The notes under the pieces: generated by a model
Told to the model about the DNA's origin: nothing
Seen by the model: the letters and a program-made list of their open reading frames with translations, nothing else
The model's database searches: none
Made by a program: the position numbers and the translations under genes
Origin: Bilabrum cf. latius
Lineage: Eukaryota
DNA: 64,000 nucleotides
Assembly (NCBI GenBank): GCA_965178125.1
Contig: OZ237751.1
Location: 372,001-436,000, forward strand
Direction: 5' to 3'
Shown: piece after piece, positions 3,790-64,000 of the stretch
Layout of the letters: the number at the start of each line of letters is the position of its first letter
Numbering within the stretch: the first letter of the stretch is position 1

Positions 3790-5720
3790 ATGGCACAGTA
3801 CGCACAGTATGGCGGCCCCATGCACGGTAGTATGCCGATGCAGGGCGATGCGGCCCCGAACAGCAGTGGCATGCTTGGGCCACCTGGCCGCGGCGATCCC
3901 AGCACCACTGTTTTTGGTAAGCCGTCTCACAGAAATATCTACTTGTGCGCTACACCGTAACTAGTGATACACACACCCTACTGGATACATATAATTACGC
4001 TCGTTCTGCAGTCGGTAACATTTCCTATGACGTCCCGGTGCCGCAAATCGAAGCTCTCCTCCACGAGGCTGGTACCATTGTGGCTCTCAGGATGAAACAT
4101 GACCCTACCCCAGGGCATCATCACAAAGGATGGGGTTTTTGTACTTATGCGAATCCTATGGAGGCACAGAGAGCTATACAGACGCTGAATGATAGGATCC
4201 TCGGAGGCCGCAATGTCCGCGTGAAGCCTTAGACGGGTGCCAGCCGCGGCGCAGGTGGTGGCATGAACCCGATGCCGCCGAGCCTACCGATGGGCGGCAT
4301 GCAACAACATGGTGGTTACAACATGCAGCCGCAGCAGCAGTCGCAGCACGCCCCCCGGGGGTACGGCGCTCCGCAAGGGGGCCAGGCGCCGATGGCGGGA
4401 GGCAGCGCGCCAGGCACCTTCGCTCTGCAGCCGCTCGGCGGTGGCGCCGCGCTTGGTTCCGCTCGTCCGTCGTACGCACGCGCTGCGCCGATGGCATCCT
4501 CGGCCCAGCCGATGGGGCCGGCCTCCCTTGCCGGCAGCGACCGGCCCATGCTCGCCCCGACCGGAGCAAGTGCCCCGAAGCGAGCACCCGCCATCCTAGG
4601 GGGCGGGCCCCTAGGCCCAGGAGCACAGGGACCCCCCAGGTTGGATGGGCAGAGCGTCGCCCAGCGGCTGGGCGCCTACGAGCTGTGGTGTTCCCTGGGC
4701 GAGGCCCGCGAGGTGGCCCGCCGCGACCCCGCCTCCATGCGCGCCCTGCTGCAGGCCCACCCGGAGCTATGCAAGGCCCTGCTCCTGGGCATGTCGAGGC
4801 TGGGGCTGCTCAGGAAGGAGACGGCGGCGGCGCGGGCAGAGGCCCGGAAGCGCGGGGACGTGGCCATGGACGCGTCCATTATCCACTCCGAGTCCAAGAC
4901 GGAGCAGGGCGCGACTGCGCCCTCGGCTCCCGGCGCAGCTGGCGGCGCGGCGCGAGCCTCCTCTTCATCCTCGTCCTCATCATCGGCCGCAGCCGGTCCA
5001 GCGAGCGGCGGTGCGGGGGCACCGAGTTCGGGCGGGGGCTTGCTTGGCTCTACTCCCGGGATGGGCGGCGCTGGGCTGCTCGGTGCACCTCCAGGGAACA
5101 ACGGGGGCGCGCCGCCGGCAGGCTCAGGTCATCCCCTCCCGGGTGCCCCGCCCATGCCGCACCACCAGCCGCCCTAGCACCAGCACCAGCCACCGCCAGG
5201 CATGCACTACGGAGCGCCCTCCGGCCCGGCGCCCGGCCCGGTCCCCGGCGGGTACGGCGCACCAGGAGCACCCCATGTCCCTCGGCCGGGTGCGTACGGG
5301 GCCCCGCCCCCGGGTCACTACGGGCATGCCCCTGGCGGCCAGGGCCCCATGCAGGGGGGCCCTCAGCCACCCTTGGGGACACCCCCGGCAACGTCAACGT
5401 CGTCAGCGTCGCCGGGTGTTCCGGTGGCGTCGTCGTCGTCAAGTGGCGCTGGCGGAGGGCCGTCCGCGAGTCAGCTGGACGAGGAGATCGTGCTGATGAT
5501 GGACATCCTCAAGATGTCCGACGCAGATCTGGCTGGTTTCGACGAGGAGCAGAGGCAGGGCATGGAGGCGATGAGGAAGGCGCTCATGACCCCCAGCTCG
5601 CAGATCGAGGCCTTCAAGGAGCCGGAGAGATCCGAGGTGCGCGAGATGAAACAGACGCTCATTGGAGCTCTGCAAGGTGCCGGAGTGAATCTTAGCGAGG
5701 TATAGGGACTGCAGATGTGA
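3790..5720 (+). CDS. CSTF2: Cleavage stimulation factor 64 kDa subunit (CstF-64/Rna15), about 611 aa; exons 3790-3916 and 4012-5720; 3 in-frame TAG (4230, 5175, 5703); ends TGA
   Basis: The RRM (TVFVGNISYD...KGWGFCTY) is restored by splicing. Also present: hinge (ARRDPASMRALLQAHPELCKALL), Pro/Gly-rich region and C-terminal CSTF_C-like motif (ILKMSDADLAGFDEEQRQGM). ORF pieces 3945-4232, 4263-5177 and 5202-5705 share one frame and are separated only by TAG. Confidence 0.88.
3917..4011 (+). other. Spliceosomal intron (95 nt, GTAAG...TGCAG)
   Basis: Removal joins TTT G|TC GGT AAC, giving the RNP2 motif VFVGNI. Confidence 0.9.
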
Positions 5721-5897
5721 CTGATTCGTTGTGGATTTCTTTGCCTTTATGCCTGCTGTCGAATTTGTGAAACGACCGCCAAAGGTTCTTGTCAGTTTCT
5801 GCTCCTCCTTCTCGTCGGTCCACAGCAAATACCAAGATTGCAATTGTTCGGAGCAGAATTACCATGAAATTGGCTGTAGCATTGGTACAAATTTGAT

Positions 5898-6784
5898 ATG
5901 ACAATACTGCTCCGCGCTTCAAGGGGGTAGCTACGACTCAGCCGGCTGGCACCGCTGGTCGATGCAGCGTGTGCATTGCGGTTTGCAGGCCTGGATGCGT
6001 GAGGACGGCAAAGGTAGCGCGACATTGCACTCAGCTTCTCTATCAGATATACTTGGTACACAGTGTTTCGAGCGTGCTTTTGTCTCGCAGTGACTGTTCG
6101 ATCTGGTATGCATCGTCGAGGGCAATGGCGGCTTTGAATGAACAGTATAGGGGCAAGACTGGTGCGACCGATGTACTTTCGTTCGGAAACGAATCAATCG
6201 AAAGCTTTGCAGCACTGCGAGGGCGCGGTGAATTTGCGGAGGGGCTTGCACTGGCAGAGAAGCGAGGGGTCACAGACCTAGGAGACGTAGTCTTGTGCAG
6301 AGAGCTGATATCACCGTAGGAGCATTGGACGGAAAACGATAGGCAAGTTTTAGTGCATGGTATGGTGCATCTGCTAGGGTATGATCACGAGAATGTGCCT
6401 GCGGAAGACGTCGTGTCGATGGAGCGGCGCGAAGAGGAACTCTTAAGCCACCTGCAGCAAGTGCTTGGGGTGGCCGGGTCTCTGCCATCAAGGATAAAAG
6501 AGAAAGCGGAGGCCCTCTGCTGGCAAATAGACGCGACAAAAAACCCCAACGATTCCATTTCATCGGGTCTCGATTTGGATGACCCGATAAATTGCCTCGA
6601 TGCTGCTAGGGACAGCGGTGCCGTGCTTCCCCCTCTGGAGTAGATGCAGCAAGTTCTTGGGCTCGGGGAAGATACGTTGGGTGCGAACGAGGGATCCATA
6701 AGGAATGGAAATCCAATGTCGGTGGTCTAGGCTCTTGAGGAGCCAGGCACCCGCTGGGCTATGAACCCTTCTGACCTGTTTTGA
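5898..6784 (+). CDS. ybeY: YbeY-family rRNA maturation endoribonuclease (probably organellar), about 264 aa; exons 5898-5998 and 6091-6784; TAG at 5928, 6317, 6641, 6728; ends TGA
   Basis: LNEQYRGKTGATDVLSF, LGDVVLC, then the Zn-binding HGMVHLLGYDHE motif downstream of the TAG at 6317, in the same frame. Confidence 0.85.
5999..6090 (+). other. Spliceosomal intron (92 nt, GTGAG...CGCAG)
   Basis: Removes an in-frame TGA and restores the frame into DCSIWYASS. Confidence 0.75.
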
Positions 6785-6888
6785 AGCGGCCCTGCATCAT
6801 GGAGATCTCACATGCTCTCGTACAGGCCTCTGCACGTTTTCCTACTTAAAGTTTGAAGCGTCTCTAGCACTGCAGTCCGAAATGCTCC

Positions 6889-9615
6889 TCACACCACGTA
6901 TCCCAGAACGCCTGCATCCGTTCCACCAAACAGGCAGGCTGCATCAACCGAGATGTAGTAGTACCCGTCACCGGCTGCCGTGCCAGAGGCATGGGAGTAG
7001 CTGCCAGCGGCCTGCTGCACCCTGCACTGGCGAAGCACTCGCGGAAAGTGGCCCGTCTATCGAGTGGCAATCACAGCAATCGGCACTTCACTCCCTGGCA
7101 CACCGAGCCCTCCGCATGTCGAGTCCGTGCCGTGCACAAACGGCCCATCGGCGGCAGATACACCAGCGATGGTGCCAGACCCGTCAGTCTGCTACTGCTC
7201 GCACCGGTACAGCACCACCGTGTTCTCTGGCATGTGTTCCCTGACCATCCAGTAGTCCAGGGCGCTGAAGGGGCCCAGGGAGACTTCGCGGTATCTGGCG
7301 CTGTCGTACGCGATCGTCTCGTTCGCACAAAACGTGCCCGTGGGACCGCTCCATGGGTTGCAGCGCTAGACGTATGGGTGGCTTGCCTCTTTCGCGGTGC
7401 TGCGGGGTGCGCCACTTGAGCTGGTGGCACCACCTGTCCAGCGCATCACTTCGCCGAAGTCAGAGGACAGTGCCGTGCTTGTGCCAGGCGTGCCTCTGTC
7501 CATGTACCACACGGGCACAAAGGCCTGGTCTGCTTCCAGGGTGCAGCACAGCTCCCCAGCCACAGTGCAGCTTGCCATGGTGCGGCGAGCGGCAGCAATT
7601 GCGGCAGCAGTTCCAGCAGCAGGCCCAGTTGCAGTAGAACCAATCTGTTCGTCAGTCTACGCAAGCCCCCTCCAGCCTTGCTCTCGCAGATACTGCTGCA
7701 GCCGAAGCACTCGCACGCACGACGCGTACAGCTCGAGGGAGTAGCCCTTGTCCGTCACGCTCGGCTCGAGATTTCGGTTGCGGCCCGCGGTGTACCCGTC
7801 GTTGAAGATTAGGTGCGCGTCGTCATCTCCGAACCGGCCCGCAACGTGCAAGAACGGGTTCTTGTTGGCCCACGTCGACAGATTGTTGGGGCGGATCTGG
7901 TACTCGTTGAAGGACGGCGAGAAGATATTGTCCACAGACCTGGACATCGCGTCGTAGAACTGGAGCTTCATGTGGAGCCCACCGAGCACGCCCGGAGAGC
8001 TAAAGGGCAGGCCCATCGTGGCATCCTCTTTCGATATAGTGTGCTCCGAGCCCAGGGGGGAGTGCTCGGTGCGGTAGTGCCTGCAAGGCTCCTTGTAGTT
8101 GATGCTGGTGGTCCGTTGCACCGGGAACGGGCTGGGTCCCCGATCCGAGTACAGCGATGCATCATCGCCCCGGTTGCCCGTGCCCGTGCTGGTGTTCGTA
8201 CAGGATGACAGGTAGGTCCACGATCCATCGTGCTGCCACCACGATGTGTTCCCCGGGCCGCCCTGAGCCAGCCAGTTGTACACTGGTAGGACGTCGTGCC
8301 GTCCTCCGTTAGCGGCCACTGCTGTAAGCGTGGTGAGGTTGGTGGCCTCTCGTTTATTTGAGATGAAGAAAACCTTCTTTGACGTCATATTTCCTTCCTA
8401 CTCCCTCATCACAATGTCGCTGAAGGTCTCGTTATTGAAGAAACGGTCCAGGTACCACTGCCACAGGTCACATGTACCAGTAAGTCGGTGGAACACTGTC
8501 AGCGACGGCGTCTTTTCTCCCTCCCGCCGCAGCCTGGCGAACTCTTCGAATACCTGGAGCGTCGGACCCTGCTGCCTGACGTCAGTGATCGGATCATCCG
8601 TGACGCACCAGTTGGACGCGTCAAAGGTGAGGGCGTCGATGCCAGCCGCCGAGGCGATGCGGGCGTGCCACCGAATCGCTTGGCGCACCTGCTCCGCGGG
8701 GAAATCCGGGATCGGCACCCCGGCCGGGCGACCGGGCCGGTGCCTCCACAGGCCATAGATCCCGATCTGTGACCTGTCTTGGTACCAGTTGATCTCACCC
8801 TCAGGCCACGGGTAACGCAGCGTTTCGTTCTGCTCGATAACGATCGAGTCCATGGTCAGGGAGCCGTTCGAACGGACGACGTCCTCGGCAGTGTGCACGT
8901 GCGCAGGCCCGAGCACTTTGGAAATGTTTTGCATGATCTGTGCGGTTATCTGGTTGAGGGTCGTGTAGTAGGCCGACACGCGAGGGCGAGGGAGCTCGGC
9001 TCTCACCAGCACGGTCTTATCTGGCAGCGCGATCCTGTTCTCGACCGCCTCCTTCGGAAGCTTTGCGCGTACAAGTATTCCAGTTGGGACGGAGGTATGG
9101 CTGATACCCGCCTGCCGTGCGGCAGGGGGAATGTGGACTGGCCTTGAGCCGGAAGCCTGGATGGCGTACACATTCAGCCGATGGTAGCCCGAAGTCTCGA
9201 AAGGGATGACACCATCGCAAGTAAGCGAGCATCCGAATGTTGAAGTAGACACGTCCACATGTAGATCGGAGCAAGTGTAGACGTGTGCTCCTTCTACTGC
9301 AATTGCGAAGGTCAAACTAGCTAGCCCAGGATCTGTACACGCGCAGCGCGAAGACATCTACACGCGAACAGAGACCCGAGCACCGCTGTCAAAAGCAGGA
9401 GGAGCTCCATCATATAGTGAGTTTGTGGAGTTTTGCACGCCGTATATCTAGAAAGAGCTCTTTGCATCAAGTCCATTTGGATCCATGCATCTGTCTGCTT
9501 GTGGTGCAGCTACGACTGGTGCACCCCACTCAGCAGAAGCTCCACATAGGAAGAGACTAACAGCAAAAATGATGATCATCGCTCCCTTCAAGATAAAACT
9601 CTTAAGTGTGTGCAT
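6889..9615 (-). CDS. Secreted protein with GH99/GH71-like catalytic region and Cys-containing C-terminal module, about 900 aa (start ATG 9615 or 9579); TAG at 9448, 9358, 8398, 7657, 7366, 7192, 7057; ends TGA
   Basis: Signal peptide MIIIFAVSLFLCGASA. IRWHARIASAAGIDALTFD and FSPSFNEY resemble GH99/GH71 TIM-barrel motifs; C-terminal YRC...CGG...GVLGYVV. ORFs 8398-9357, 7657-8388 and 7366-7578 are co-framed. The family call is tentative. Confidence 0.7.
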
Positions 9616-10090: not shown

Positions 10091-13000
10091 TTAGATGACT
10101 TCCACGTCGTGACCGCTGAATTGGGTCCCTGTTTCGGCGCTCCCTCGTTCCCCTCGCGACCCGCTTCCAGGACTGCCGCCTGCGGATCCGTCACGCGCCG
10201 CCTCCACGCCCAAGCCAGCGGTCACGGCGGCAGGGCTTTCCCTCGCACCCGGCGATCGCTGCCCGCTGGCAGACCTGGCGCGTGAGCCGGCGCCCGGGCT
10301 CGTCGCCCCTTTCCTCTTTTTCTTGAGCGTCTTGAGCGCCGAGTTCTGTTCCCTGGCCTCCTTGCTCTTGCGGTCGAACATGCTGATCATACTCTGCAAC
10401 TTGGCGGCCCGTTGCAACTTCTCTCCCGCTGCCTAGGAGACAAGGCCTGCCCTCCTCTCCTTCTGCTTCTGCTTCTGTTTCTTCCTCCTGCCGGCAGCCC
10501 CCTGAGGGCCCGCCTCTCCACTTCCTTTGCCTTGCTCGCTCGTGCGGCTGCTCTGGCTCCTACCACGGCCGCGCGGCGCCACTGTTCCAGAGGCGAACGA
10601 CCCAACAGTCGTGGGTGAGACAGATAGACTTCCCAGCCTGTCGTCACGAGCATGAGCATCGGCTGCTTCCCCGCCTTCTTCTTCGTCGTGGCCCCCGTCA
10701 CCGATCGCGAGCAACCTCATGGAAGCGCTCTAACCCAGGCTCCTGCCGCTATCCTGGCCCGGCAGTCCGCTCGAGTTCGGCCTCCCTCGCGACATGAACG
10801 CCTGTAACGGGTTGACGGGCGGCTCCTCGGCTGCCTGGGTCTCGCTCTCCCCCGTCGGCCGGCCTCGCGACATGAACGCCGTAAGCGGGTTTGTAGACCC
10901 TGGAGCGCGGGCGTCTGAATCTTCGCTCGATTTGCTTGGTTCTTGTCCGTTCGATGAACCCGCACCCACGTGTGCCCTAGCCATGGGGTTCAGGCTGCTC
11001 TGGAATGCGCCGGATCGTCCGCCCATCGCCGTGCCCGATCCCATGCGCGAGAAAGCGCCAGAGAGCTTCGCGTCGTGCTCTTGTCCAGAGGTACCAGACA
11101 GGATCGGGCCCAGGCTGGCTGCTTCCACCCGTTTCTTTGAGCTGGGCCCGCTGCGCTTCGAAGAACTCCCATCGTTCGCATCGTCCTCTGCCAGCTTCCT
11201 CTCCTTCTCTGTTTGCTCCCTTTGCTGTTTCTCTAGCTTCTCCTATTCCTGCCGGGTCTTTTCTTGCCTCGCAAGCATTGCTACACGCATGGGATTCAGA
11301 CCTGCGACGGATACGCTGGCCCCTGCCGTGCGCAAAGCCAACGTTGGACCACCGGTGCCCTCGGGCAGTCCCCGGCCGAACAGGTCGGACCTTGCATTGA
11401 ACTGTGGTGCAGATGTCATACGCTCGGCGTCTCTTCTCGCACACATGGACTTCCACATGCAAATACAGCAAAACACGTACCCGCATGCCGCGGCCGCACT
11501 CCCAGCCGCCGAGCCGCACGCCTGGCATGGCCCGTCGAGCCTAGCACCTACTGCACCCATGGCCGCCGTTCCAGCACCCAAAGCGCCACCAACCAAACCT
11601 TTGAACTGCTACCAAAAGCTGGTGATGGCATAAAGGACCAATGCAGCGTTGCTGACAATCACCACCCACGTGGCTGGCGACTCGACGCTGACTCCGTACG
11701 ACTCCAGATTCCTCATCTGCCTCTCGACCTCGACGACCAACACCATTAGCAGGGAGATAGCTGCAGTTCCAATCGCAAGGAGCTCAAGCCGGTTGAGCAA
11801 ATTGTCGTATTGGTACTTCACCGCGGGAACCTGCCTGACCGCCTCTGTCTCCTGCCTACCGTGAGGCCCACCCTCATCCCCGTAGTCAGCAAACACGTTG
11901 AGCCCGTCGTCGATTGCGCCAAGGAGATCCTCCAAAGATGGCGCGTCGAGCGGATCCTGCTCCCCGTCTACGTTCATACCGTTATCTAGGCTGAAAGTCG
12001 AGCCGACGGAGTTTGTCCGCGCAGCTCGCGGGGGGGGCAGCTGTGTTTGGCTGCTCGTGGCCGCATGGGGAGCAGCTGCAGGGCCCAGGGTTGGAAGTGC
12101 CTTGGACTCATTCGCATGGCTAGGCGCGGCACCCAATCTCTACTGAACCATAGAGCCAAGCAAGCTGTTTTCATCTCCTTCTCCCTCCTCTTCCACCTTG
12201 TCTTCCATGTCGAAGATTCGTTTTGGGTCAGGCATGTTGCGGGCCGGCTGGAACGGTTGTCGACTGGACAGCAGCTACCGAACAGGAGTGTCAGCCTTCG
12301 GACCAAACTTGCCGAACAGAGAGGTGCGGGTTCGCCTTCGTACACGTGCTGACGGTGCCTCTAGCACTGTCGCATCGTTTCCAGTGCGAGACTGCGGCTT
12401 TGCCTTCCCGATCCCGCCTTCTTCGCCGCCACTGTCTAGGCCTGGTACAGAACTACCAGCAGCCTAACGATTCAGCTCTAGGACATCAAAACGAACGACT
12501 GGCTCTAACGACCGCCGTTTCTGCATCCTGGCGTGCATGAGCCAGCGACGCACCGCATCGCGCTGGATTGCCTTTTCGTATAGTCTGACCTCGGAGTGGC
12601 ACCGTAAACACAGCATCTTCGAAATCCAGTAGATCATGCCACCGCAACAAATGGTGGAGTAGGGCTTTTCGAGAAGCTCCATCTCAAACACGGCACGGTC
12701 GCGCCGGGCCCCCCTCCCATGTGCGCTAGCTCTCCGTATCTGACCGCTGAGCTGCTTGATGCGCTTGCGGCAGTCATCGGGGTATCGCCGTGCTGCTTCT
12801 TCGTACTTGGCCTTGCGGGCGAGATGCTGCCCTTCTGACTCGTTCAGGGATTTGACTGGCTCCACAGGCTTTGGAGGCATCTTGCGAAGAGCGGCGAGCA
12901 CGAGATGGTTGAACAGGCACTGCTTCCAGCGGATGTACGTTTCATCTGGCATTGCTTCCCACTTGACGTTCTCAGGCAGGCTGTCATCCTCTCGAGAATG

Positions 13001-50383: not shown

Positions 50384-50716
50384 TGTTTCCTCGATGAGGC
50401 AATTCAAGTGCTTCGGTACGCTGCCTTTTGCAAAGCTTCGTTGCAGCGATCAGATTCTATGGCTGCCCAATGAACGGTGCAGACCACAAGCCCGGCCGCA
50501 GTGCACGCGCTGACGGCACCACTGGCAGTACTACCCGGACCGACCGCAATGACGCGCAGTGCACCCAACTACTGCTAGTTCACGCACAATGGGATGACTT
50601 GGCTAACGCAAAGAATAAATAAAAACTTATTCGTTGCTGCGCACGCCTGAGTGTGAACTTCGTTCTGTCCATACTTCCGATAGAAGTGCAGCGCTAGACC
50701 ACACCAGGTTCAATCA

Positions 50717-52282: not shown

Positions 52283-52404
52283 GCGAGCAAAGCTCAGCCT
52301 GAGACGCCAGAAGTCGACTAGCCACTGGACGATACCGCGCGGTGTGATGAGCCACAGCCCGATCATTTTTTAGCGCCATCACAGCCAAGAATTTGTCGAA
52401 ATAC

Positions 52405-53631
52405 ATGCTACGCAGCATGAGGGCCGTCAGAAAATGCAATAAACTGTTTGGTTGCGCGCACAGATGCTTGCAAAGCTCTCGGTCGCTGTCGATTTCAGCG
52501 TCAACCTGCAGCGACATTCTGTCAGCTGAAGAAGCCGCGCACTACATTGGCTCCTCGAGCGCGATTCCAATTGACCTGGGTCATCCTGCTGCAATCGCAA
52601 GATTGGTGAGTACATGGGCGCTTGGCTTTGCGTATTAGCTCGCGGTCCTCCAGTTTCCACTGTCGATCCTTCGCGATCGTAGCCGCCAGGTTACAAGCAG
52701 CTCCCGTCGCTTTTTCGAACCGAGCGATGATTGCAACTTCCGAGGTTTAAGCATTGCAGAGCTTTAAAGGCGCTCGAGCCTCTCCTCTTCCGGGGACCGT
52801 GAAGGGTGGCGACGGGCTCGTGCTGCCGCTGGAGCAGGTGTCTGGTGTGAGCAAATCAACATCCATTTACCGCAAGCTTGAATCGGGAGGCTGTGAATAG
52901 GTATGCTTTATATGATCCAAGAAACCGTCTCGCAGGCGCTCGTGGAAGCTGGTATCGCAAAAGGCAACGACCTGCTACTGCTGGATGACGGGCAAGGAGT
53001 GGCAGCCGCAAGGCTCTGGTGGGTACTCAGGTATTACGGATTTAAAGGTCAGGTCAAGGTGCTGAATGGGGGCACGCCATCATTGATCCAAGCCATTCAG
53101 AGCGGAAACGAAGCGGTTCTAGCTGCCGTGGGGCCTGGAGCCGTGGTTCCCGACGACGACGCTCGCACAGCCGCAACGCAGAATCCCGCACCGCTGTCGG
53201 CGACTGACGAGTGGCTTTACTCCCCCGAGGACGCATCAGCGAGCATCGGCATGGCAGGTGGCCCCAGCGGCCGCTCCCCGGACGAGAAGGTGCTCCTGCT
53301 GGACGTGCGTACGGAGGGCGAATGGACTGGAGACGACGAGAGGGGGAACCCGGTGACGGGGCGGCTGCCCGGCGCCGTGCACCTGCCGCACGCGAAGCTA
53401 TTAAAGGAAGGTTCGCGGGAGTTCCTCACGGGAGACGCGGCGCGGTCAGTGCTCCAGGAGAGCGGCGTGCCCTCACCCGACTCGGAAGGCCTGGTGGTGG
53501 CGCCTTACTGCCAGTCAGGTGTCAGGGCCTCGCTGGCTGCTCTGGTGGCGCACTCGGCGGGGTACAAGGTGCGGAACTACGACGGTTCTTTCGGGTATCA
53601 CGCGAAGCACGGGCTTGCGGTGGAGGAGTGA
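52405..53631 (+). CDS. Two-domain sulfurtransferase (rhodanese / 3-mercaptopyruvate sulfurtransferase-like), about 327 aa, probable mitochondrial presequence; exons 52405-52605, 52760-52846, 52936-53631
   Basis: AARLWWVLRYYG, VKVLNGG, LLDVRTEGEWTG, GRLPGAVHLP, active-site YCQSGVRAS, YDGS. Predicted introns 52606-52759 and 52847-52935 (GTGAG...GCAG) preserve the frame. The 5' exon structure is less certain than the 3' exon. Confidence 0.8.
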
Positions 53632-54059: not shown

Positions 54060-55003
54060 ATGTCAGCCCCACGAGCCGGCAACAAGTACGATGTTGTTCC
54101 AGCCGACTACCCCAGGATGTCTGACAATCGGTTTGACATTACGCCAGGCGAGCGTGTGATCGTGAAGATGGTGAGTGTATCGCAACAGATGTGCGCTGCA
54201 CGATTCCAGCCCAGGTTTCTCTAATATGCTATGTATTGGACACTTTTGCTTGATACCAGCTGCCCCCACGCTGTCCTGCGCGTCTTTTGAGCTCGTGCTG
54301 GCCCACGCGTAGCAACCTGTCTGCAGGGTCCCGTGGGGTCCATCTAGTGGCACATGTGATTGAACCAGCGGGGACTGCGTGTACTGCCTCGATTGTGACA
54401 CACTGGATCCATGGATGTGCATGAACAAGTTGCTTTTTTCTGCTTGAATCGCAGGACAACTGCGGCTGCTGCCCGTGCGGATTTTGCGGTATGCCCGGTG
54501 GCGGCATCGCCAAGGAGGAGCGCAACAGCGTGCCTGCTCCCCTGGCTGAAAAAGGTGTCACCCTGGAGCAGTGGCAGCGCTGGCAGGCGGACTTCGACGA
54601 GAACGTGGATCCGCGCATGAAATGTTCCGCCTGTGAATGCCTTTGCTTGGCGTCGATCGTCGGGGCTATAGCTTTCGGCATCTTGTCCCTCTGCGGATGC
54701 TGGGGGGACGAGTTCCAAGTCGCGGCACGCGAGTGGCAGGACCGCATTAACAAGGAGCTGAATCCTCCGATGTTCGCCAAGACGCAAGTCATCCTCATGG
54801 AGTTGCAGACAAGCCTTTTCTCGCGGTACCCCTTCCGTTTCCCGTGGCTATCGATCGCGATGACTGAGAGAGAGGCAGAGAAGCTTCGCAAAGAGCCCCA
54901 CTACTACTATACGACGGATGTTGAGCAGTACTGCTGCTGTGGCAATGGTGGTTGCAAGGGTGAGCCCATTTGCGGATGCGACATGAGTGACATCGTGATG
55001 TGA
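54060..55003 (+). CDS. Cys-rich ERF4/GOLGA7-like protein, paralog A, about 219 aa; intron 54171-54454
   Basis: Near-identical to the 56138-57082 copy. PAPLAEKGVTLEQWQRW...hydrophobic Cys cluster...WQDRINKELN resembles the ERF4 family (tentative). GTGAG...CGCAG intron; ends TGA. Confidence 0.65.
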
Positions 55004-56137
55004 CAGTTGCGGCAGCCACTACCGGCCATTTCGGCGTGGTAGGCAGTCGTGCAAAGCCCCCACAGCGAAGACCAAGGGAGTGATAAAAGATAGCAGGCTG
55101 GGTGCAAAGTTGGAACTCTAGTTTTGGTTGAAAAGAGCGGCAGGCCACCATGTGCTGATATAGATCTTCTTCTTTACACTTCGCCAGCAAGGGTGTTTTT
55201 GCGCAGGATCATCACCAACAACTCTACGACAACTTTACATTCCTGTATGTCAGCGATTGCATGGTCACTATGCTGTTAAGTACGTGGTCCGCCCATGGCT
55301 CCAACTGCGAGCTGTTGAAATCATGAGCCTGCACCTCGAGCGGGTCCTGGCAGTGCGACCACCGCGCGACCTCCTTCTCAGAGACCTTGATGGCCTCACC
55401 AACTGTGTGCCCCGAGCGCATTCTGCACAAAATAGGCCTTCCAACAACAACTTAAATAGGAAAATGATCCTGCACTATTCATTCAGGACATACCACTTCA
55501 TTGCTCACCCGAAGGTGGGAGGGACAAGTCGAAACCAGCGCCACCTCTGATTCCCGCCGGTGTTCGTCTCAACTTGTTCCCCTTGTCGATCATGTCCCGC
55601 ACCACATTAAATCCTTCCAGTGGTACGAGAATGCTTTGGTTGGCACAAATCAATGCCTGAGCAACCATCATGACCTGCCGCTCCTGCGGCCAGTTGTAGA
55701 CTCATTGCAACTTGTGTGCCGCCGGCAAGCAGATGCAGCTGCCGTTGGACCTGGAGTGCGAGTTCATTATGCCGCGACTCGCGCAGCCGATGCGAAGCAT
55801 CTCGCGTCGCGGCTGGCAGGTTACAGTTATGTATTCTCTGCGTAGGACCGGCACCAGCTGCCGCTGCCAGTCGCGGGTACGAAACGGTGCTTCCTTTGTT
55901 CGCCTGGCAGATTGCCACCCGTGCAGTGAACGCATTGTTCCTGTGAAGATATGCGAGATTTCCTTCCTCATTGAACTCAATCATATATATTCAATCGGAT
56001 TTTGCGACCACACCTCAGAATGAAAAATGAAGACAAAAACAATTGCGGGTACCACGGTTCCGGGTTTACCACCTAGTTCGCCGCGTTGAGCGGCGTTGTC
56101 TCGACGCAGCAGTTCATGTCTCACTTCTTAGCTCACG

Positions 56138-57082
56138 ATGTCAGCACCACGAGCCGGCAGCAAGTACGATGCTATTCCAGCCGACTATCCCAGGATGTCT
56201 CCCAGTGATACACGGTTCGACATTACGCCAGGCGAGCGTGTGGTCGTGAAGATGGACTCGGGCGAGGTGAGAACATGTTGGATGGCGCGCAACTCTACTA
56301 GCACAGTAACAGCCCTAACCCCGCTCATGGGGTCGCATGAGATGCATACTTGCCCGTGCATGGCATGCAAAGCCGTATATACACTGGTGCATTCAACCAG
56401 CTGCAAGTATCTAGTCCGTTGGGGTGTACCGGTCGCAGCATCGCGTCGACCGGCTCATCCGGGGAATGTGCCCCCATTGTGCCTTTGTCGTACGTACAAC
56501 AATGACTGAGTGTACCTTCTCTTGTTGCAGGACAACTGCGGCTGCTGCCCGTGCGGATTTTGCGGTATGCCCGGTGGCGGCATCGCCAAGGAGGAGCGCA
56601 ACAGTGTGCCCGCCCCCCTGGCTGTAAAAGGCGTCACTCTGGAGCAGTGGCAGCGCTGGCAGGCGGACTTCGACGAGAACGTGGATCCGCACATGAAATG
56701 GTCTTACTGCGGGTGTCTCCTCGCCATGACAATGATCGGCTACCTGCTGTACATCATGTCGATCGGGTGCTGCCCGAGCAAGTTCCAAGCCGCAGCACGC
56801 GAGTGGCAGGACCGCATCAACAAGGAGCTGAATCCTCCGATGTTCGCCAAGACGCAAGTCATCCTCATGGAGTGGCAGACAAGCCTGAATACGCGGGAGG
56901 TCTACCGCTACCCCTGGATTTCCTTCGCGCTGACTGAGAGAGAGGCAGAGAAGCTTCGCAAAGAACCTCGCTACTACTACACGACGGATGTTGATCAGTA
57001 CTGCTGCTGCTGCTTTCGCGACAGCGTCTGTGGTGACGGCGACCCCTGCTTTCCCTCCGCCCTGGAGGACATTGTGGTATGA
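56138..57082 (+). CDS. Cys-rich ERF4/GOLGA7-like protein, paralog B, about 226 aa; intron 56267-56530
   Basis: Same N-terminus (MSAPRAGSKYD) and exon 2 (DNCGCCPCGFCGMPGGG) as paralog A. GTGAG...TGCAG intron; ends TGA. Confidence 0.65.
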
Positions 57083-57421: not shown

Positions 57422-59146
57422 TCAATCCACGTAGTCGTTCCTCCGGACGGGAGGCACCTCGTAAAATCCTTCGTCTGCGTCATCACCTGCATCATCATGA
57501 CCCGGACCAGCCTCGTCCTCGCTAGCACTGCTACGATCACTCCCCGGATCAACATCGTGATCGGAGCCCACGCTGCGATCGGGCGAGCCGCCCCTGCTGC
57601 GGCCCAGCGGAGATTCCCTGGTCGACGGCGCCATCGTGCGATGCACCTAGACGGACGGCGAACCATCATCAGCGATATCTCCGGCACGTGCAACACCCGC
57701 GCTCACGCGAGGGGCAGCGGCGCCAGCCTGCATCGCCCCGTCCACGAGCTCGATCCCGTCCTCGCTGGAGAGCCTAGAGTCGAGACTGTCCGCATCGCCC
57801 AGCACCATGACACCGGCGCCCGACGTCCCCAGCCCCCCTCCGTAGCTCGCATCTAGCACGCCGCTGCCGCCCCGTGATCTGTGCTGCAGGCTAGCCGCGC
57901 CGTTCCGAGCAACGCGATCTTCGAATTGCCCGGCATCGCCATCGCTGCCAACGGACAGTATCTCAAGATCGAGAGATTCTCCCCGGTTCACGAGCGCCTC
58001 CTCGTCCTCCTCCTCTTCCAGCGCCTGCTGATTCGCCGCTGCCTGTGAGATCGAGCTGAACTTTCCCCTTCGCCCGTCGCTCTCAGCTGCCACCCCCTTG
58101 CCCCCTTTCTCCACCTCCGCCGCGGCGCCGTCGCCGTCGCCCTGTACCTCATGCTAGACCCCGCTGCCGTCTCCATCTCCGCCGTCTTCGCTCTTCTTTC
58201 TCGTTCGGTTCCAGGCAACCAGCGCCGTGCAGCTCATGATAAGCGTGGCACCAAGCAGGCTCCACCAGCTAAAGTGTTCTCCCAGGATGGTCGCCTGGAA
58301 GATGAAGGCCAGTGCGACGTCGAGGTTCCGCATGGTGGCCCCCACAGCGGCCTCCACCAGCTGAAAGCCGCGGTTGAGCATCAGCTGGCCTGCGAATCCC
58401 ATCGTGCCTACCAGGACTAGCAGGACGTACGGCCACGTCTATGGCGGCAGCTGCACACCCTCCACCGCGCCGGCCATGACCGTGGCGCACACGCCTCCGA
58501 ACAGTCCCATGTAGAGCGTGGGCACGGGGGCGGGCTCCTTGGGCTTGAGCATCCTCAGCGAGATGAAGGACGAGGCGGCAAAGAGGGCTCCCAGGCCGTT
58601 GATCACGAGGTTCCAGCTGCGGCCGAAGTCCAGTCCGGCGCGGCCGAACGCGCCGCCGCTCGGCTCGTGCTTGGAGGCTGCCTCGCCAAACAGGCCAGGG
58701 GGCCGCGCGATGCAGAGGATTCCTGCGAACGAAGCGATCAAGCTGATCGCCTCCACCCAGCCAAAACTCTCGCCCAAGAGCAGCCATGCCAATCCTGCAG
58801 TCAATACGGGGTTCGTAAACATGATTGCAGTCGCTTCGCCGAGCGGCAGGTGGCCAAGGCTGAAATAGTACGCTGTCATCCCGAGGAACCCAAACACTCC
58901 CCGGGACACCAAAGGCCATCGGTTGTCCGGGTGCCCAAACCAACCATTCTTTGGGCCCGTGTATTGCATCCAGGCGCACGCAAACAAAGACTGGATGATG
59001 AATCGCGTCGCTGCGATCGTGAACGTGCCGAAGGAGTTTGATAGCATGTGCACCAGCAGAGACATCACCGAGAAGGCTGCTGCTGATCCTAGCACAAGCA
59101 CAATTCCTAATCCATATGGTGGTAGGGAATCGAGGCAACCCATCAT
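57422..59146 (-). CDS. EamA/DMT-superfamily (SLC35G-like) membrane transporter with long acidic C-terminal tail, about 574 aa; TAG at 58439, 58154, 57647; ends TGA
   Basis: RGVFGFLGMTAYYFSLGHLPLGEATAIMFTNPVLT...LLGE. The second EamA repeat (GFAGQLMLNRGFQ...LGEHFSWWSLLGATLI) continues across the TAG at 58439. The start is uncertain. Confidence 0.82.
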
Positions 59147-59396: not shown

Positions 59397-61100
59397 ATGA
59401 TTCGCAGCAGTAAAGGTACACGAACTCTACATCTACCGAGGTGCTGGCTTGATCCCGGGGTATCAAGGCCGCATAGCCGCTTCACATGGAACTGGAGGCG
59501 GGCCTACCAGGGTACTCCATTAATAGGCTCCAGCATCGACGATTTCACAAAGGATTTGCAAAGTCGCGGAGTGGGTAGTAGAATGGGAAGAACCTTGTGG
59601 ATGCATGCGCACAGACGAGCTTGCACCAGCCTGCAACAGCTCTTCGATGAGTTATCTGTGTCTGATCGAATCGCACAGGCAGTTCGTGAAGGATGGGCGG
59701 ACAACATGGGTTCGCCTAAGGAAATCATGTCACAGTAGAGTCTAGACGGTACTTCAAAGTGGTTGCTGCGGTTTGATTCGCATCCTCAGAAGCAGCAGCA
59801 AGCCAACAAGATGGCTGCGCCTGTTGAAATTGAGACTGTGTTCATCCCAGAAGACGACCAGGTCGTTGCGAAGCCCGATCGCAGCAAGGGAAGCACTGGT
59901 GGTATCGATTATATGGGCCGGGGCACCGTTTGCGTGTCCTCCCAGGCCGGTTGCTCGCTGGGCTGCACGTTTTGCTCGACTGGTCGCATGGCCCTGCAGC
60001 GCAACCTAGCCCCTCACGAGATCGTATGGCAGCTACTGTGGGTGCGGAAGGCACTGGGGGATCTACCACTGCCGCCAAATGCACCCAAACCGGAAGAATC
60101 GCCCAGTTGTTCCCCACGATCCCATGGTGCGGTTCCCCTCAAAGCAGCCCAGCACTCCTACCGCGCATCCAACGTGGTGTTCATGGGGCAAGGGGAGCCA
60201 CTCTTGAACTGGAGAGCGGTGAAACGCGCGGCAAGTACCATAACAACGGCGGGTGGGTGCGCGGTGGCTCCCCGCAAGCTGACAATATCCACCAGCGGGA
60301 TCGCCCCGGCCATCCCAAAGGTCAGGACGGAGCTCGGGGTATCCTTGGCGCTATCACTGCACGCCCCCACAGATGAGCTGCGGTCCCAGCTGATGCCCAT
60401 CAACAGGTACCACCCCTTGGACCATGTCATGAAGGCAGTCAAGTAGTATTCCGTTGCCCAAGGACCAGCAGACCCTGCGAAGCCCAAGGTCACTAGCTTG
60501 GCAGGCTCAAGCGGGACTGCATCCAGACCGGACGACGAGTCAACGGTGACTTCCCCAGCCGTCGCTGGGGCATCGAATGCCGGCAACGGATCAAAGAAGC
60601 GGGCCAAGCCCCGCAGAGTGCTCGTTGAGTACGTGATGATCAGGGGAGTCAACGATAGCCCCGAGCACGCCCGGCAGCTGGGAAGCCTCCTTCAGGAGCA
60701 CGGGCTGAACGCTCACGTGAACCTGCTTCCTTTCAATCCATTTGCGGGGAGTGATGGTGACGACGATGCCATCGTCGGGAATGAGGCAATGCCAGTACAA
60801 ACAGAAAGTGGATTGCCGGCCAGCGACGCAAGTGTTGACGCCAGCGAAAGTGGCGGCGCAGGTGACGCCGCAGACCCGTCCACATACGCCCCTTCTCCTC
60901 GCGAGAGCTTGCTCGCGTTCTCCTAGGTGCTTCAGGGGGAGCCGTGGAGGGTCAGCTGCAACGTGAGGTGGCCTCGTGGAGTGGACATCGATGCGGCGTG
61001 CGGGCAGCTCAGGCAGAAGTACGGCGATCAGGTGAAGCGGGCACAGGTTGGCACGGGGTAGCAGGCAGGGGACTTTGGCGGGGATCTGCGGTTCCAATGA
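59397..61100 (+). CDS. rlmN: RlmN/Cfr-family radical-SAM RNA methyltransferase, about 567 aa; TAG at 59736, 60444, 60924 and near 61059; ends TGA
   Basis: [69 protein letters not shown], and C-terminal [12 protein letters not shown] (catalytic Cys) located after the TAG at 60924. Confidence 0.92.
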
Positions 61101-61225
61101 AAGCGGGGACGGGGCAATGGATGGCAATGAGTCGTGCGTTGAATGCGCTTGCACAGAAGGAATTTGCACGAAGCATAACGTGGACTCGTGGGATGCCCGC
61201 TCGTGCCTTCCACCACCAAACACAA

Positions 61226-62650
61226 TCAAAGTAGCCGAAGCGAGCCCGTCACCGCGTCAACCTTGCTCTCCCTGGCTGGCCCTACAGCCAGCACGGTGCG
61301 AGTGCCTGGGGCCACCTCCGTCCTGCCCGCATCCGTGATGCCGTTGGCAAGCAGCCCGCGCTCCCTGGCCGCAGTCTGCACGCGCCTCATGTCGCCCTCA
61401 TCCTTGGCTTTGACCACCACGATCTTCTCCCCGGATCCGACCCACTCCGCCAGCTCTCCAGGGGTCTTCTCCTGCGCCTCTCGGAATCCAGCCAGAGCCG
61501 CATGGCAGCATTGCGCGGCGAGCTTGCCGGCGCTCATGCCCAGATCCTCCCTTGCCACGATCACCATCTTGCGCCTCTCCTGCCCCCCTGCCTCGCCGCC
61601 ACCCAGGACGCCACGAAGTGCCATGTGCAGGCTGGCTGCAACCTGGGCGCCTAGCTCCTCGGCCCCTGGTGCATCGGCTCCGGACGAGCCACCGTCCCCG
61701 GCGCCTCCGCCCGCAGTCCCCTGGCGAGCAGAGCTGCTGCCAGCCGCCTGCCTCTCCCCGCTCTCTGCCAGGTCAGCGAGGACTCCATCGAGGGCTGCTT
61801 CCAGCGCTAAATACTCTGCATCGTGACCGCTCCCTGCTGCATCGGTTCCTCCTGTTCCTGTCTCTTCTTCCTCTTTGGCGATAGGCACCTTGGGCTTCCC
61901 TGCCGCCGCCGATAGGGAAGCCCACGCAGGCGGCGCATCGCTGGAATCCACCCCGACAGTCCCGTCCTGCACCTAGGCACATACGCTGCGAATGATGCTC
62001 ATGGCAACCTTCAGCTGCTCCTCGCGAGGCACGTCTCGGTGGGCGGGGACATGGACGAACTACGAGGTCGAGCACTTGCTCGAGGAGGTCAAGTGCAGGG
62101 AGCTGTACAGCATGTAGTTGCATATGAACATGCCCGCATCATCGGTGCACTCGATTTTCTCGCGAGAGCTGCCGGCGCGCTCGTCTGCTCGCACGCAAGC
62201 TGCCGCAAGCTTAGCGTCAACCTTTACTTGGAGAGTGTCCGGGGCGCTTGGCACCACTGGAACAGGAAACATTTGCGATTCGCCAGACTCGTCTGAAAAC
62301 ATCCACTATGCACAATTTCTGCCAGTGCATTCGAGCCTAAAGTTGGGGTAGCCGTCATACACACCAAAATGGACGAGAACGGCGCGGTCGTGGGATTGCC
62401 ACTGCGCCTTTAGCTGCTTCGCAACCGACACAAGCCCCTCCTTCACGCCACCCCTGCTAACATGAAGCACTTCTGCAGACGCCAGGTGCACGTACTCTGG
62501 CAGAGAGCCACTGTCTTTTGCAAATAGGGCTTGGATGTCTTCAATCAATGCTGTAGTTGGGTTATTCTCGACACCATGAAACTTTCCGAACCCTGTAAGA
62601 CACAGCAGGACGCGACCTTTCTCAGTCTATCGTTCAGCTACACCAGCCAT
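61226..62650 (-). CDS. Pyroglutamyl-peptidase I (C15) fused to peptidyl-tRNA hydrolase 2 (Pth2), about 474 aa; TAG at 62627, 62306, 62060, 61973; ends TGA
   Basis: N-terminal part: LTGFGKFHGVENNPT, HFGV, RLE, DAGMFICNY, FVHVP (Glu/Cys/His triad). C-terminal part: KMVIVAREDLGMSAGKLAAQCCHA, GEKIVV, DAGRTEVAPGTRTVLAVGP, VDAVTGSLRLL. All in one frame. Confidence 0.8.
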
Positions 62651-62782
62651 GCTGCGGTGCCTTTGCTGCGAGAATGAAAGATGTGCAAATACATTGAACC
62701 ACCACTCATCACTGGTTGGCACTGCAACTGCCCAGGTGGGCAGCCCACCACAGCAAGACAGCACCACTGCTCCCATTGCAAC

Positions 62783-64000
62783 ATGCAGCAGTCGATATTT
62801 ACAAACGATTTGAGCGAGGAGGACGCCGTAAAGCTCGTGCGGGAGGGAGCTAGCATCGCCTGCGTGGATGTGCCTCCGGGGACTTCGTTCGGGATCGACT
62901 TGGCCAGCTTTTAGACAGGCACTGGATTCATGGGATTCAAGATGGTCCCACCAGGCGCACATTTCTTGTATTTTTCGTCCAAGAAGAAGGGGAATGGCTC
63001 CGCATTGGCCGAAGGAGACTCAATCGGCGGCTCCACGACGAGCCGGCAGGGCCTGTTCGTGTGGGCTCATCCGCGAGGTTCTCGCGCATTCCGCTGGTCC
63101 GCCCCCGAGGAAGATATTGATGATGAATCCTTGTTGCCTGGTGACCTCGCGTAGCGATGGAAGGCGTCTGCCCGTGCAGGCGCTCTGGATGGCCAGCTGG
63201 GTGCGTACCCCCTGCGGCTGCTCAAGCGCTGGCGCAACCTGACCGGCCACATATCTGATGACCTGCTGCATCGATTAGGCTCTTAGCCTGATAGAGAAGC
63301 GTGGCTGTCCCAGCGTCGAGCCAGGGACAGCGCCAGGTCCTCGAGAGCAGCCTATTTGAGCGAGCAGAGGGACCGGAAGCAATTGCGCGCCAGGCTCGCA
63401 CAAGCCGCGGCCCCAGAGCCGGCCGCGAAAGAAACTGCCGCGCAGGCCAGCATGCAAGACGATAGCGGTGAAGACTAGAAAGCAGCATTGCAGGCTCCCA
63501 GCGCGGCAGGAGGAGCAGCAATGGACCCCGAAGGGACAGGCGCCTCTGCTGCAAGCGCGCGGGCCCAAGACGACCGAGCCAGGGCCGCCATCGAGTCCAA
63601 GTACGGGACAGCCAGCCTGCCGCCCAACCATCTTCAAGGGGCGGACCCATCGCACTCGTCACATGCCCATGGAGCTGCAACCCCTGGCCGCGCGACGATG
63701 TCTCGCCCGTCCCCCGTTTCCAAGACGAGCAGTCCCATGGCGGATCTGCTATTCCCTGAGCTCGCCGAAGGTTCGCCAAAGGTTCCTCTTAACGCTGCGC
63801 ACAGGGGTTTTATGGCTGCGGGTGAAACAGAGACGAGGCACGTGGTGGGTCCGAGTCCGAGCCAGTCCCCGTTGCGCGGCGGTGTGGCTGATGCTGCGTG
63901 CACTGCAGGGTCTAGCGCGGCAGCGGTTGGCAGCAGTTCTGCAGCGCACGTAGGGTCCGCCAGGGGAGGGTCACCGGTGCCTTCATATTCGGTTTCTGCT
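62783..64000 (+). CDS. AAR2: AAR2 (U5 snRNP assembly factor), 5' part; runs off the window end; TAG at 62912, 63152 and two more near 63284 and 63476
   Basis: DVPPGTSFGIDLASF*TGTGFMGFKMVPPGAHFLYFS and LDGQLGAYP...WRNLTGHIS match the AAR2 N-terminal domain. The frame stays open to 64000 if TAG is sense. Confidence 0.85.

What the first reader, a model, noticed from the sequence alone, without database searches (positions are those of the whole stretch)
3790..64000. Nuclear genetic-code variant: UAG alone is a sense codon, while UGA (and apparently UAA) still stop
Seen: 9 of the 12 genes contain in-frame TAGs, and I found no internal in-frame TAA or TGA in any of them. TAGs sit upstream of indispensable motifs: YbeY HGxxHxxGxDH (after 6317), RlmN DAACGQL (after 60924), Pcp catalytic His (after 62060), AAR2 GFKMVPPG (after 62912) and the CstF-64 hinge (after 4230). 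In the giant ORF, 66 consecutive co-framed fragments all end in TAG, including TAG-TAG doublets (41354/41357, 42776/42779). Established: UAA and UAG are usually reassigned together in eukaryotes. UAG-only reassignment is rare; known cases include the fornicate Iotanema (Gln), a rhizarian (Leu) and a few ciliates. Inference: this GC-rich genome does not look like a typical AT-rich ciliate, so it may be an independent, possibly unreported reassignment.
Basis: partly seen in the sequence, partly recalled or inferred. Interest (0 to 1): 0.96.

Follow-up and report, generated by a model that had tools for sequence, protein, structure and literature searches.

The report
Nuclear code: UAG read as serine
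This eukaryotic chromosome piece is written in a rare genetic code in which the stop codon UAG is an ordinary amino-acid codon, most likely for serine, and the same code turns up in several unnamed relatives.

Summary
Nine of 12 gene models carry in-frame TAG: 141 TAG in 18,413 codons, with no internal TAA or TGA. One frame of 13,438 codons holds 108 TAG. Ten of 11 complete genes end in TGA and one in TAA. Contigs of three other studies carry the same TAGs. Two of those runs behave like transcriptomes (spliced GT..AG joints, contig ends at gene ends), so editing, splicing and basecalling error are excluded.

A close relative ends 3 of 4 ORF fragments exactly at window TAGs. A distant relative from a metagenome (32-39% identity) has 17 TAG, 0 TAA and 0 TGA in 2,099 in-frame codons. 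The code therefore belongs to a clade.

A likelihood test over 19 TAG sites of the giant protein family favours serine: Ala -10.4, Glu -15.0, Gln -20.6 lnL. Masked controls never reached these margins in 2,000 resamples. Against serine, a close relative reads Gln at three sites, and distant domain homologues often show Glu.

The taxon is not placed. The only named near homologue is Cafeteria RlmN. UAG-to-Ser is known only from the green alga Scotinosphaera. UAA is not a sense codon, but its role as a stop is barely tested. No tRNA(CUA) or eRF1 could be examined.

The parts
10091..50407 (-). Giant ORF of 13,438 codons: a surface-protein-like gene with C-type lectin, SUEL lectin, a Cys-rich module and C-terminal membrane helices. 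It holds 108 in-frame TAG, no internal TAA or TGA, and ends in TAA. The start is uncertain within the first ~10 codons.
3945..5720 (+). RRM protein resembling CstF-64: 3 in-frame TAG (first at 4230), ends in TGA. The 5' end is uncertain.
5969..6784 (+). YbeY endoribonuclease homologue: 3 TAG. The one at 6317-6319 lies 13 codons before the HGxxHxxGxDH motif. Ends in TGA.
6889..9615 (-). ORF of 908 codons with no Pfam family: 7 TAG, ends in TGA.
50717..52366 (-). ORF of 549 codons (weak BRK match below Pfam cut-off): 5 TAG, ends in TGA. Covered by a transcript-like X6 contig (50636-52272) with no differences.
52897..53631 (+). Last exon of a rhodanese-domain gene: 0 TAG, ends in TGA. The introns upstream are seen as GT..AG joints (52604>52759, 52846>52936).
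54425..57082 (+). Tandem pair of paralogous genes (main exons 54425-55003 and 56510-57082): 0 TAG, both end in TGA. Intron 54170-54453 is seen as a joint.
57422..59146 (-). EamA-family transporter: 3 TAG, ends in TGA.
59397..61100 (+). RlmN-like radical-SAM rRNA methyltransferase: 4 TAG (aa 114, 350, 510, 555), ends in TGA. The close relative P0001 reads Q at 350 and ends at 510.
61226..62653 (-). Pyroglutamyl peptidase (Peptidase_C15) fused to peptidyl-tRNA hydrolase PTH2: 4 TAG, ends in TGA. The C-terminus lines up with the ends of solved PTH2 chains.
62789..64000 (+). AAR2 homologue that runs off the window: 4 TAG, the first at 62912.
44186..44188 (-). TAG codon 2074 of the giant ORF. The ~90%-identical relative in run X11 has TCC (Ser) here, two base changes away.
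41354..41359 (-). TAG-TAG doublet (codons 3017-3018). A second doublet lies at 42776-42781.

Best explanation
The window is nuclear DNA of an unplaced, GC-rich, intron-poor eukaryote. Its cytosolic translation reads UAG as a sense codon, most likely serine. UGA is the working terminator, and UAA is not a sense codon. Shown: TAG stands in-frame in real, conserved genes. It is present unchanged in independent assemblies, including transcript-like ones. It is shared by a close and a distant relative. TAG sites behave like serine sites in family alignments. Inferred, not shown: decoding by a tRNA with anticodon CUA, which pairs with UAG but not UAA. For serine this would be a tRNA-Ser(CGA) copy with one anticodon change, accepted because seryl-tRNA synthetase does not read the anticodon. 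An eRF1 that no longer recognises UAG is also inferred.
For: Frame statistics:
- 141 TAG, 0 internal TAA and 0 internal TGA in 18,413 codons.
- Off-frame, the giant ORF holds 54 and 56 TAA and 237 and 357 TGA.

Independent data:
- Listed contig pieces with 0 differing letters cover 23 (X5), 20 (X6) and 12 (X7) of the 40 TAG in 44001-64000.
- X6 and X7 contigs start and stop at gene borders and carry GT..AG joints.

Clade:
- Three of 4 ORF fragments of the close relative end exactly at a window TAG.
- Metagenome loci L001 and L002 overlap 100% and so come from one organism, M. Its frame has 17 TAG, 0 TAA and 0 TGA in 2,099 codons.

Serine:
- ML with fixed tree, LG+G4, 8 rows, 19 covered window TAG sites: S 0, A -10.4, E -15.0, T -17.3, Q -20.6 lnL.
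- M's own 16 TAG sites: S best, A -0.4, E -4.7, Q -8.9.
- Controls masked before alignment, 2,000 resamples each: truth Q gives S in 22 of 2,000 and a largest S-Q margin of 17.1; truth E gives S in 14 of 2,000 and a largest margin of 12.3; truth S is recovered in 1,867 of 2,000.
- Where the two distant relatives agree, they show S at 3 of 4 sites (752, 1061, 1095) and E at 1 (697).
- One TAG is TCC in the close relative.
Against: - In the close relative, 3 of 5 window TAG sites that it reads as sense are Gln (RlmN 350; giant 1298 and 1614). One is Asp and one Ser. One fragment of the relative ends opposite a window CAG.
- The RlmN alignment alone prefers Q, with S at -4.3 lnL, driven by that relative.
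- TAG sites in domains compared with solved structures align with E twice in human AAR2, with E in 3 of 4 YbeY chains, and with D and G in Pcp.
- M has TAG where the window and relative K both have Q in the conserved LTQDGAAIG.
- All 19 likelihood sites come from one fast-evolving protein family, and 8 rest on M alone.
- No tRNA, eRF1 or peptide evidence exists: the window holds no tRNA gene and no genome is held.
Confidence: 0.75

Rival explanations
1. UAG is sense but codes for glutamine, as in Iotanema and some ciliates, through a tRNA-Gln(CUA).
For: The close relative reads Q at 3 of 5 changed TAG sites, and one of its fragments ends opposite a window CAG. RlmN ML prefers Q. M has TAG at a Q conserved in the window and K. 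TAG and CAG differ by one transition, so if they are synonymous such pairs are expected.
Against: Giant-family ML puts Q at -20.6 lnL for the window, -8.9 for M and -29.8 for both. When real Q sites were masked, S beat Q in only 22 of 2,000 resamples, and the margin never reached the observed value. M shows Q at 0 of 18 window TAG sites and S at 8 of 18, against P(S|Q)=0.14. My rate estimate puts Q about level with S among changed sites even under serine, because TAG to CAG is the fastest single change; this is an inference from the changes listed.
Confidence: 0.09
2. UAG is sense but codes for glutamate, as UAG does in the ciliate PL0344 or UAR in peritrichs and Blastocrithidia.
For: TAG aligns with E in human AAR2 at 2 of 2 sites, with E in 3 of 4 YbeY structures, with D in Pcp, and with E in two or three relatives at giant site 697. 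BLOSUM sums over the domain sites favour E.
Against: ML puts E at -15.0 (window) and -19.4 (both). With masked E controls, S won in 14 of 2,000 and the largest margin was 12.3. The close relative shows no E at any of the 5 changed sites. The domain comparisons are to very distant homologues, with one or two sites each.
Confidence: 0.07
3. UAG has a dual or ambiguous meaning: sense inside genes, but also a stop in some contexts, or read by more than one tRNA.
For: The residues aligned to TAG sites are mixed (S, E, Q, G and others). Some TAGs lie close to the 3' end beyond the conserved domain (RlmN aa 555; YbeY aa 223 and 251), so termination there cannot be excluded.
Against: 108 TAG in one ORF require efficient decoding. 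No gene model here needs TAG as its stop. The serine signal is as strong as for true serine sites.
Confidence: 0.05
4. The TAGs are not translated: they reflect a sequencing or assembly artefact, RNA editing, hidden introns or pseudogenes.
For: Nothing found. The run kinds of X6 and X7 are only guessed by the tool.
Against: Contigs from three other studies are identical. The transcript-like contigs keep TAG and run unspliced across 20 (X6) and 12 (X7) TAG sites. TAG alone interrupts the frames. The trait recurs in an Illumina-type metagenome contig of a distant relative. Pfam domains continue across TAGs.
Confidence: 0.01

Closest known systems
Scotinosphaerales (ulvophycean green algae): nuclear TAG to Ser with TAA and TGA as stops (Li et al. 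2021, PMC8271138; passages read, supplements closed)
   Same: Only UAG is reassigned. The amino acid inferred here is the same, serine. TGA and TAA remain outside coding frames.
   Different: Nothing places the window in green algae. The nearest named RlmN homologue is from the stramenopile Cafeteria. None of the 5 3' UTRs that end at transcript-like contig ends holds TGTAA; that this is the chlorophyte poly(A) signal is recalled, not tested. TGA dominates as the stop here (10 of 11), whereas that paper reports TAA for three of four genes.
Iotanema spirale (UAG to Gln) and the rhizarian exLh (UAG to Leu), Panek et al. 2017, PMC5304391 (passages read)
   Same: UAG-only stop-to-sense change in a nuclear code. 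The predicted mechanism is a tRNA(CUA) that cannot read UAA. My likelihood test follows their approach.
   Different: Leu is rejected here (-34.6 lnL) and Gln is disfavoured. UAA is the dominant stop in those two taxa, while UGA dominates here. The presence of YbeY and RlmN points to an organelle with its own ribosomes, unlike a fornicate (inference).
Phyllopharyngean and other ciliates with UAG-only reassignments to Leu, Gln or Glu (McGowan et al. 2024, PMC11687900; passages read)
   Same: UAG is uncoupled from UAA, and the change recurs within a clade.
   Different: The window is 56-62% GC and a 64-kb multi-gene stretch. That this is unlike the AT-rich genomes and gene-sized chromosomes of those ciliates rests on recall. 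Serine is not among the ciliate assignments named in the passages I read.
Amoeboaphelidium protococcarum, ulvophytes, hexamitins and oxymonads: UAR to Gln
   Same: Stop-to-sense change of UAG in a nuclear genome.
   Different: Those lineages reassign UAA as well. Here UAA is never in-frame: 0 in 18,413 codons, with 22 or more expected in the giant ORF alone from A- versus G-ending codon ratios.

Membership tests
UAG-only stop-to-sense nuclear code | In-frame UAG inside conserved, homologous coding sequence | tested here: met
   Pfam domains and homologue alignments continue across TAG in YbeY, RlmN, Pcp, AAR2, EamA and the lectin domains.
UAG-only stop-to-sense nuclear code | UAA and UGA absent from coding frames | tested here: met
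   0 internal TAA and 0 internal TGA in 18,413 codons. 0 and 0 in 2,099 codons of relative M.
UAG-only stop-to-sense nuclear code | UGA used as terminator | tested here: met
   10 of 11 complete models end in TGA. The PTH2 C-terminus coincides with the ends of solved homologues.
UAG-only stop-to-sense nuclear code | UAA used as terminator | tested here: inconclusive
   One gene (the giant ORF) ends in TAA, but an in-frame TGA follows 13 codons later.
UAG-only stop-to-sense nuclear code | UAG present unedited in mRNA | tested here: met
   Transcript-like contigs of X6 and X7 cover 20 and 12 of 40 TAG sites with 0 differences. That these runs are RNA is inferred from spliced joints and contig ends; it is not on record.
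UAG-only stop-to-sense nuclear code | Cognate tRNA with anticodon CUA | not testable with these tools
   No tRNA gene in the window and no whole genome held.
UAG-only stop-to-sense nuclear code | eRF1 N-domain changes that weaken UAG recognition | not testable with these tools
   eRF1 is not in the window, and no genome is held.
Scotinosphaerales TAG-to-Ser code | TAG at positions where relatives have serine | tested here: met
   ML favours S by 10.4 to 20.6 lnL, with controls. S stands at 3 of 4 sites where two distant relatives agree.
Scotinosphaerales TAG-to-Ser code | The organism is an ulvophycean green alga | tested here: inconclusive
   No rRNA or marker gene lies in the window. The RlmN tree puts the window in a 14-row clade (SH-aLRT 98) with the Cafeteria cluster, on a long branch of 1.09. 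No TGTAA in 5 of 5 3' UTRs.

The most novel reading that the evidence does not exclude
An unrecognised, diverse clade of non-green protists, perhaps heterotrophic stramenopiles, shares a nuclear code in which UAG means serine and UGA is almost the only terminator. The clade would comprise the window's organism, a ~90%-identical relative, metagenome organism M and probably three or four more known only from unnamed assemblies. This would be a second, independent origin of the UAG-to-Ser nuclear code, and the first case with genomic contigs from several members.
Probability: 0.5. Interest if true: 0.85.

Novelty: new member of a known kind. Interest (0 to 1): 0.78.

Why it matters
Nuclear codes in which UAG and UAA have different meanings are few, and UAG-to-Ser has been reported once, from transcriptomes of one green-algal order. 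A second lineage would do three things:

- It would test the idea that serine, leucine and alanine are favoured targets because their synthetases ignore the anticodon. This lineage offers genomic DNA, transcript-like data and relatives at several distances.
- It would show how eRF1 can drop UAG while keeping UGA.
- It would give a series of relatives in which TAG sites are shared (close) or fully turned over (distant), so the rate of spread of a captured codon could be measured.

There is also a practical consequence. Every standard-code annotation of these organisms is shattered: relatives in public protein collections appear only as ORF fragments that end at TAG.

Tried and rejected
- No RNA holder listed: the look-up of sequencing runs put no holder on record as RNA. 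My reading of X6 and X7 as transcript-like rests on joints and contig ends only.
- RlmN columns over 120 homologues were too variable to tell the residue.
- Empirical substitution tables from pairwise alignments were noisy: S, T, N and E fell within 1.3 lnL of each other, and Q lay at -9.7. The tree-based test replaced them.
- N-x-S/T sequon test: 2 of 92 TAG have N at -2, against 4.4% for S and about 2% for most residues. No power.
- Self-comparison of the giant protein found one internal repeat pair covering 4 TAG sites. Useless.
- Neighbour-composition profiles: TAG sites look like average sites. No call.
- A second homologue search (4,500 aa, shorter proteins) gave 2 hits and a third gave 1 fragment with no informative site.
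- Scans of genome contigs and viral contigs with the family alignment found no relative.
- Atlas look-ups of two TAG-free stretches named only the families (PTH2, EamA) and gave no useful taxon.
- Cluster look-ups gave one organism name, Cafeteria, among 30 proteins asked.
- EamA had no solved relative, and the RRM site lies past the domain end.
- Leucine is rejected at -34.6 lnL. Pyrrolysine was not pursued; that it is unknown in eukaryotes is recalled.
- Seven literature searches found no nuclear UAG reassignment in a stramenopile and no UAG-to-Ser lineage besides Scotinosphaera. The library lacks most subscription journals.
Full report
**What is in the window.** The window is 56-62% GC. If TAG is read through, the minus strand 10091..50407 becomes a single frame of 13,438 codons. 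It holds 108 TAG and no other internal stop, and it ends in TAA. The two other frames of the same stretch hold 54 and 56 TAA and 237 and 357 TGA, so chance cannot keep this frame open.

Twelve gene models together have 18,413 codons, 141 TAG, 0 internal TAA and 0 internal TGA. Nine of the 12 carry TAG. The three without TAG are a rhodanese gene and a tandem pair of unknown function. Ten of the 11 complete models end in TGA and one in TAA. AAR2 runs off the window.

**Not an artefact, not edited, not spliced out.** One search found public runs that hold 57400-64000. I laid four of them on 44001-64000.
- X5, from another study, gave contigs with 0 differing letters. One of them is an 8,946-nt contig across 56935-64000.
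- X6 and X7 come from two further studies. Their contigs begin and end at gene borders (for example 57325-59297, 59432-61147, 61195-62666, 62790 onward).
- X6 and X7 also carry exact GT..AG joints (52604>52759, 52846>52936, 54169>54454, 52604>52935).
- I take X6 and X7 to be transcript assemblies. The tool only guesses their kind, so this is an inference.
- Of the 40 TAG in genes between 44001 and 64000, the listed pieces cover 23 (X5), 20 (X6) and 12 (X7), all without a difference.
- The table of pieces was cut, so the uncovered sites say nothing.

**The trait is shared by relatives.**
- The best RlmN hit, P0001 (84-87% identical, from an unnamed assembly), reads Q where the window has TAG at aa 350. 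It ends exactly where the window has TAG at aa 510.
- Three fragments of the giant protein come from the same kind of relative: P0122, P0123 and P0136, at 78-84% identity.
- P0122 and P0136 end exactly at window TAGs. P0123 ends opposite a window CAG, two codons before a TAG.
- Run X11 holds a relative at about 90% nucleotide identity. In the only part of its difference table that I could see, codon 2074 (TAG) is TCC.
- One metagenome scan returned two contigs, L001 and L002. They overlap 100% over 1,115 nt, so they are one organism, M. M is 32-39% identical to the window in this protein.
- M's reading frame has 17 TAG, 0 TAA and 0 TGA in 2,099 codons. Its other frames are full of TGA.
- No TAG position is shared between M and the window.
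- An exhaustive search of 1.84 billion representatives found 14 relatives of residues 187-1386. All are unnamed, and several are short fragments lying together on one contig. That is what a standard-code gene caller makes of such genes.

**Which amino acid.** Simple column counts were ambiguous.
- At window TAG sites, M has S at 8 of 18. In that alignment the background for S is 0.116, P(S|S) is 0.31, P(S|Q) is 0.14 and P(S|E) is 0.145.
- Relative K (P0121 plus P0124, 47% identical) has S 3, G 2, E 2, Q 1, N 1 and P 1 at 10 sites.
- The RlmN columns are too variable to use.

I then followed the approach of Panek et al. (PMC5304391, passages read).
- I built a window-anchored alignment of the giant family (aa 60-2100, 8 rows), kept the tree fixed under LG+G4, and gave TAG each of the 20 meanings in turn.
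- With TAG replaced in the window and M together: S is best, A -10.4, E -19.4, T -21.5, Q -29.8 lnL.
- Window alone: S, A -10.1, E -14.8, Q -21.0.
- M alone: S, A -0.4, T -4.2, E -4.7, Q -8.9.
- Site likelihoods over the 19 covered sites give the same order.

Controls drew 19 true sites of one residue, matched for flanking identity, 2,000 times.
- With the sites masked before alignment, truth Q gave S in 22 of 2,000 and never an S-Q margin above 17.1, against 20.6 observed.
- Truth E gave S in 14 of 2,000 and a largest margin of 12.3, against 15.0 observed.
- Truth S was recovered in 1,867 of 2,000.
- Truth T gave S in 469 of 2,000 and truth N in 362 of 2,000 (unmasked version).
- Thr and Asn would need two anticodon changes, so I set them aside on that ground (inference).
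- Where K and M agree at a window TAG site, they show S at 752, 1061 and 1095 and E at 697.

A purely mutational origin of TAG would give mostly Q ancestors, by my reasoning from the codon counts. The serine excess therefore points to TCG-TAG exchange being neutral.

**Evidence against serine, in full.**
- The close relative reads Q at 3 of the 5 window TAG sites that it reads as sense, D at one and S at one. One of its fragments ends opposite a window CAG.
- The RlmN tree test prefers Q, with S at -4.3, because of that relative.
- From the substitutions visible I estimate transitions to be about three times as frequent per path as transversions, and dN/dS near 0.3.
- With those figures TAG to CAG would be about as common as TAG to TCG even under serine. 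The Q:S ratio then discriminates by a factor of less than two. This is a rough estimate of mine.
- TAG aligns with E at both alignable AAR2 sites against the human protein, with E in 3 of 4 YbeY structures, and with D and G in Pcp.
- At the SUEL-lectin site it aligns with I, S, S, N and M. At the C-type-lectin site it aligns with Q, K, S, E and others.
- M has TAG at a Q that the window and K conserve in LTQDGAAIG.
- I put serine at about 0.8 given that UAG is sense, and Gln and Glu below 0.1 each.

**UAA.** TAA never occurs in-frame. From the A- to G-ending ratios of other codon pairs in the giant ORF (0.22 to 0.87), at least 22 TAA would be expected there if TAA shared TAG's meaning. So UAA is not a sense codon. 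Its role as a stop rests on one gene, and an in-frame TGA follows 13 codons later.

**Who is it.**
- The window holds no rRNA, tRNA or other Rfam family, and no genome is held.
- The second-best RlmN cluster contains Cafeteria roenbergensis proteins.
- In a quick tree, the window and P0001 sit on a long branch (1.09) inside a 14-row clade (SH-aLRT 98) with that cluster, apart from fungi and bacteria. This is a lead, not a placement.
- None of the 5 3' UTRs that end at X6 contig ends contains TGTAA. I recall that motif as the chlorophyte poly(A) signal.
- No green-algal name appears among the 120 listed RlmN hits, though most hits are unnamed.
- YbeY and RlmN imply an organelle with its own ribosomes, which argues against a fornicate such as Iotanema (inference).
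- Composition and multi-gene layout argue against the ciliates known for UAG-only codes (recalled).

**What is known.**
- UAG-only nuclear reassignments are reported for the rhizarian exLh (Leu) and Iotanema (Gln) (PMC5304391).
- They are also reported for several ciliates (Leu, Gln; UAG=Glu with UAA=Lys) and for Scotinosphaera (Ser) (PMC11687900, PMC8271138).
- I read passages of all three papers, not their supplements.
- Seven full-text searches found no stramenopile case and no second serine case.
- I therefore file this as a new member of a known kind. If the organism proves to be a scotinosphaeralean, it is already known.

**Mechanism.** Shown: UAG stands in mRNA-like contigs inside conserved genes, and it behaves as serine in alignments. 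Inferred: a tRNA-Ser with anticodon CUA, one change from CGA and tolerated because SerRS does not read the anticodon (established knowledge, recalled). C34 explains why UAA is not read, which is the argument of PMC5304391. An eRF1 that has lost UAG is also inferred. None of these components could be examined here.

Noticed in passing
window 57-1025 and 1365-2979: Two tandem arrays: 88 bp x 11 copies and 55 bp x 29 copies, at 95-97% matches. The periods are not multiples of three, so the long ORFs listed there on both strands are repeat artefacts, not genes.
   Followed up: partly
window ~55325-55403: A short stretch with depth up to 1,159 in X6 and 79 in X5, against 2-4 for neighbouring DNA contigs, with many diverging loose ends. 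It is probably a multi-copy element. Rfam gave no match.
   Followed up: no
window 54052-55003 and 56128-57082 (+): A tandem pair of paralogous two-exon genes with no Pfam family. Intron 54170-54453 is seen as a GT..AG joint in X6. Neither copy has a TAG.
   Followed up: partly
window 48448-48745: A GT..AG joint that skips 296 bases in contigs of X5 and X6. It lies inside the giant ORF but in the sense of the opposite strand, and only 28 letters lie on the shorter side. It may be an antisense intron, a repeat or another organism.
   Followed up: no
window 61226-62653 (-): Pyroglutamyl peptidase (Peptidase_C15) and peptidyl-tRNA hydrolase PTH2 lie in one ORF, joined by a ~130-residue low-complexity linker. 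I did not check whether this fusion occurs elsewhere.
   Followed up: no
window 52897-57082: The three genes without TAG (629 codons; about 5 TAG expected at the rate of the other genes) lie under the deepest X6 contigs. This would fit avoidance of a rare codon in highly expressed genes, but the tool warns that contig depth cannot rank genes.
   Followed up: no
L002 (relative M), aligned to giant aa 320: M has TAG where the window and relative K both have Q in the conserved LTQDGAAIG. This runs against a common serine meaning and is unexplained.
   Followed up: partly
P0121 (relative K): A 993-residue ORF fragment without any TAG, where the window has 8 TAG in the matching stretch. K may use TAG more rarely or not at all. 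Its DNA could not be fetched.
   Followed up: no
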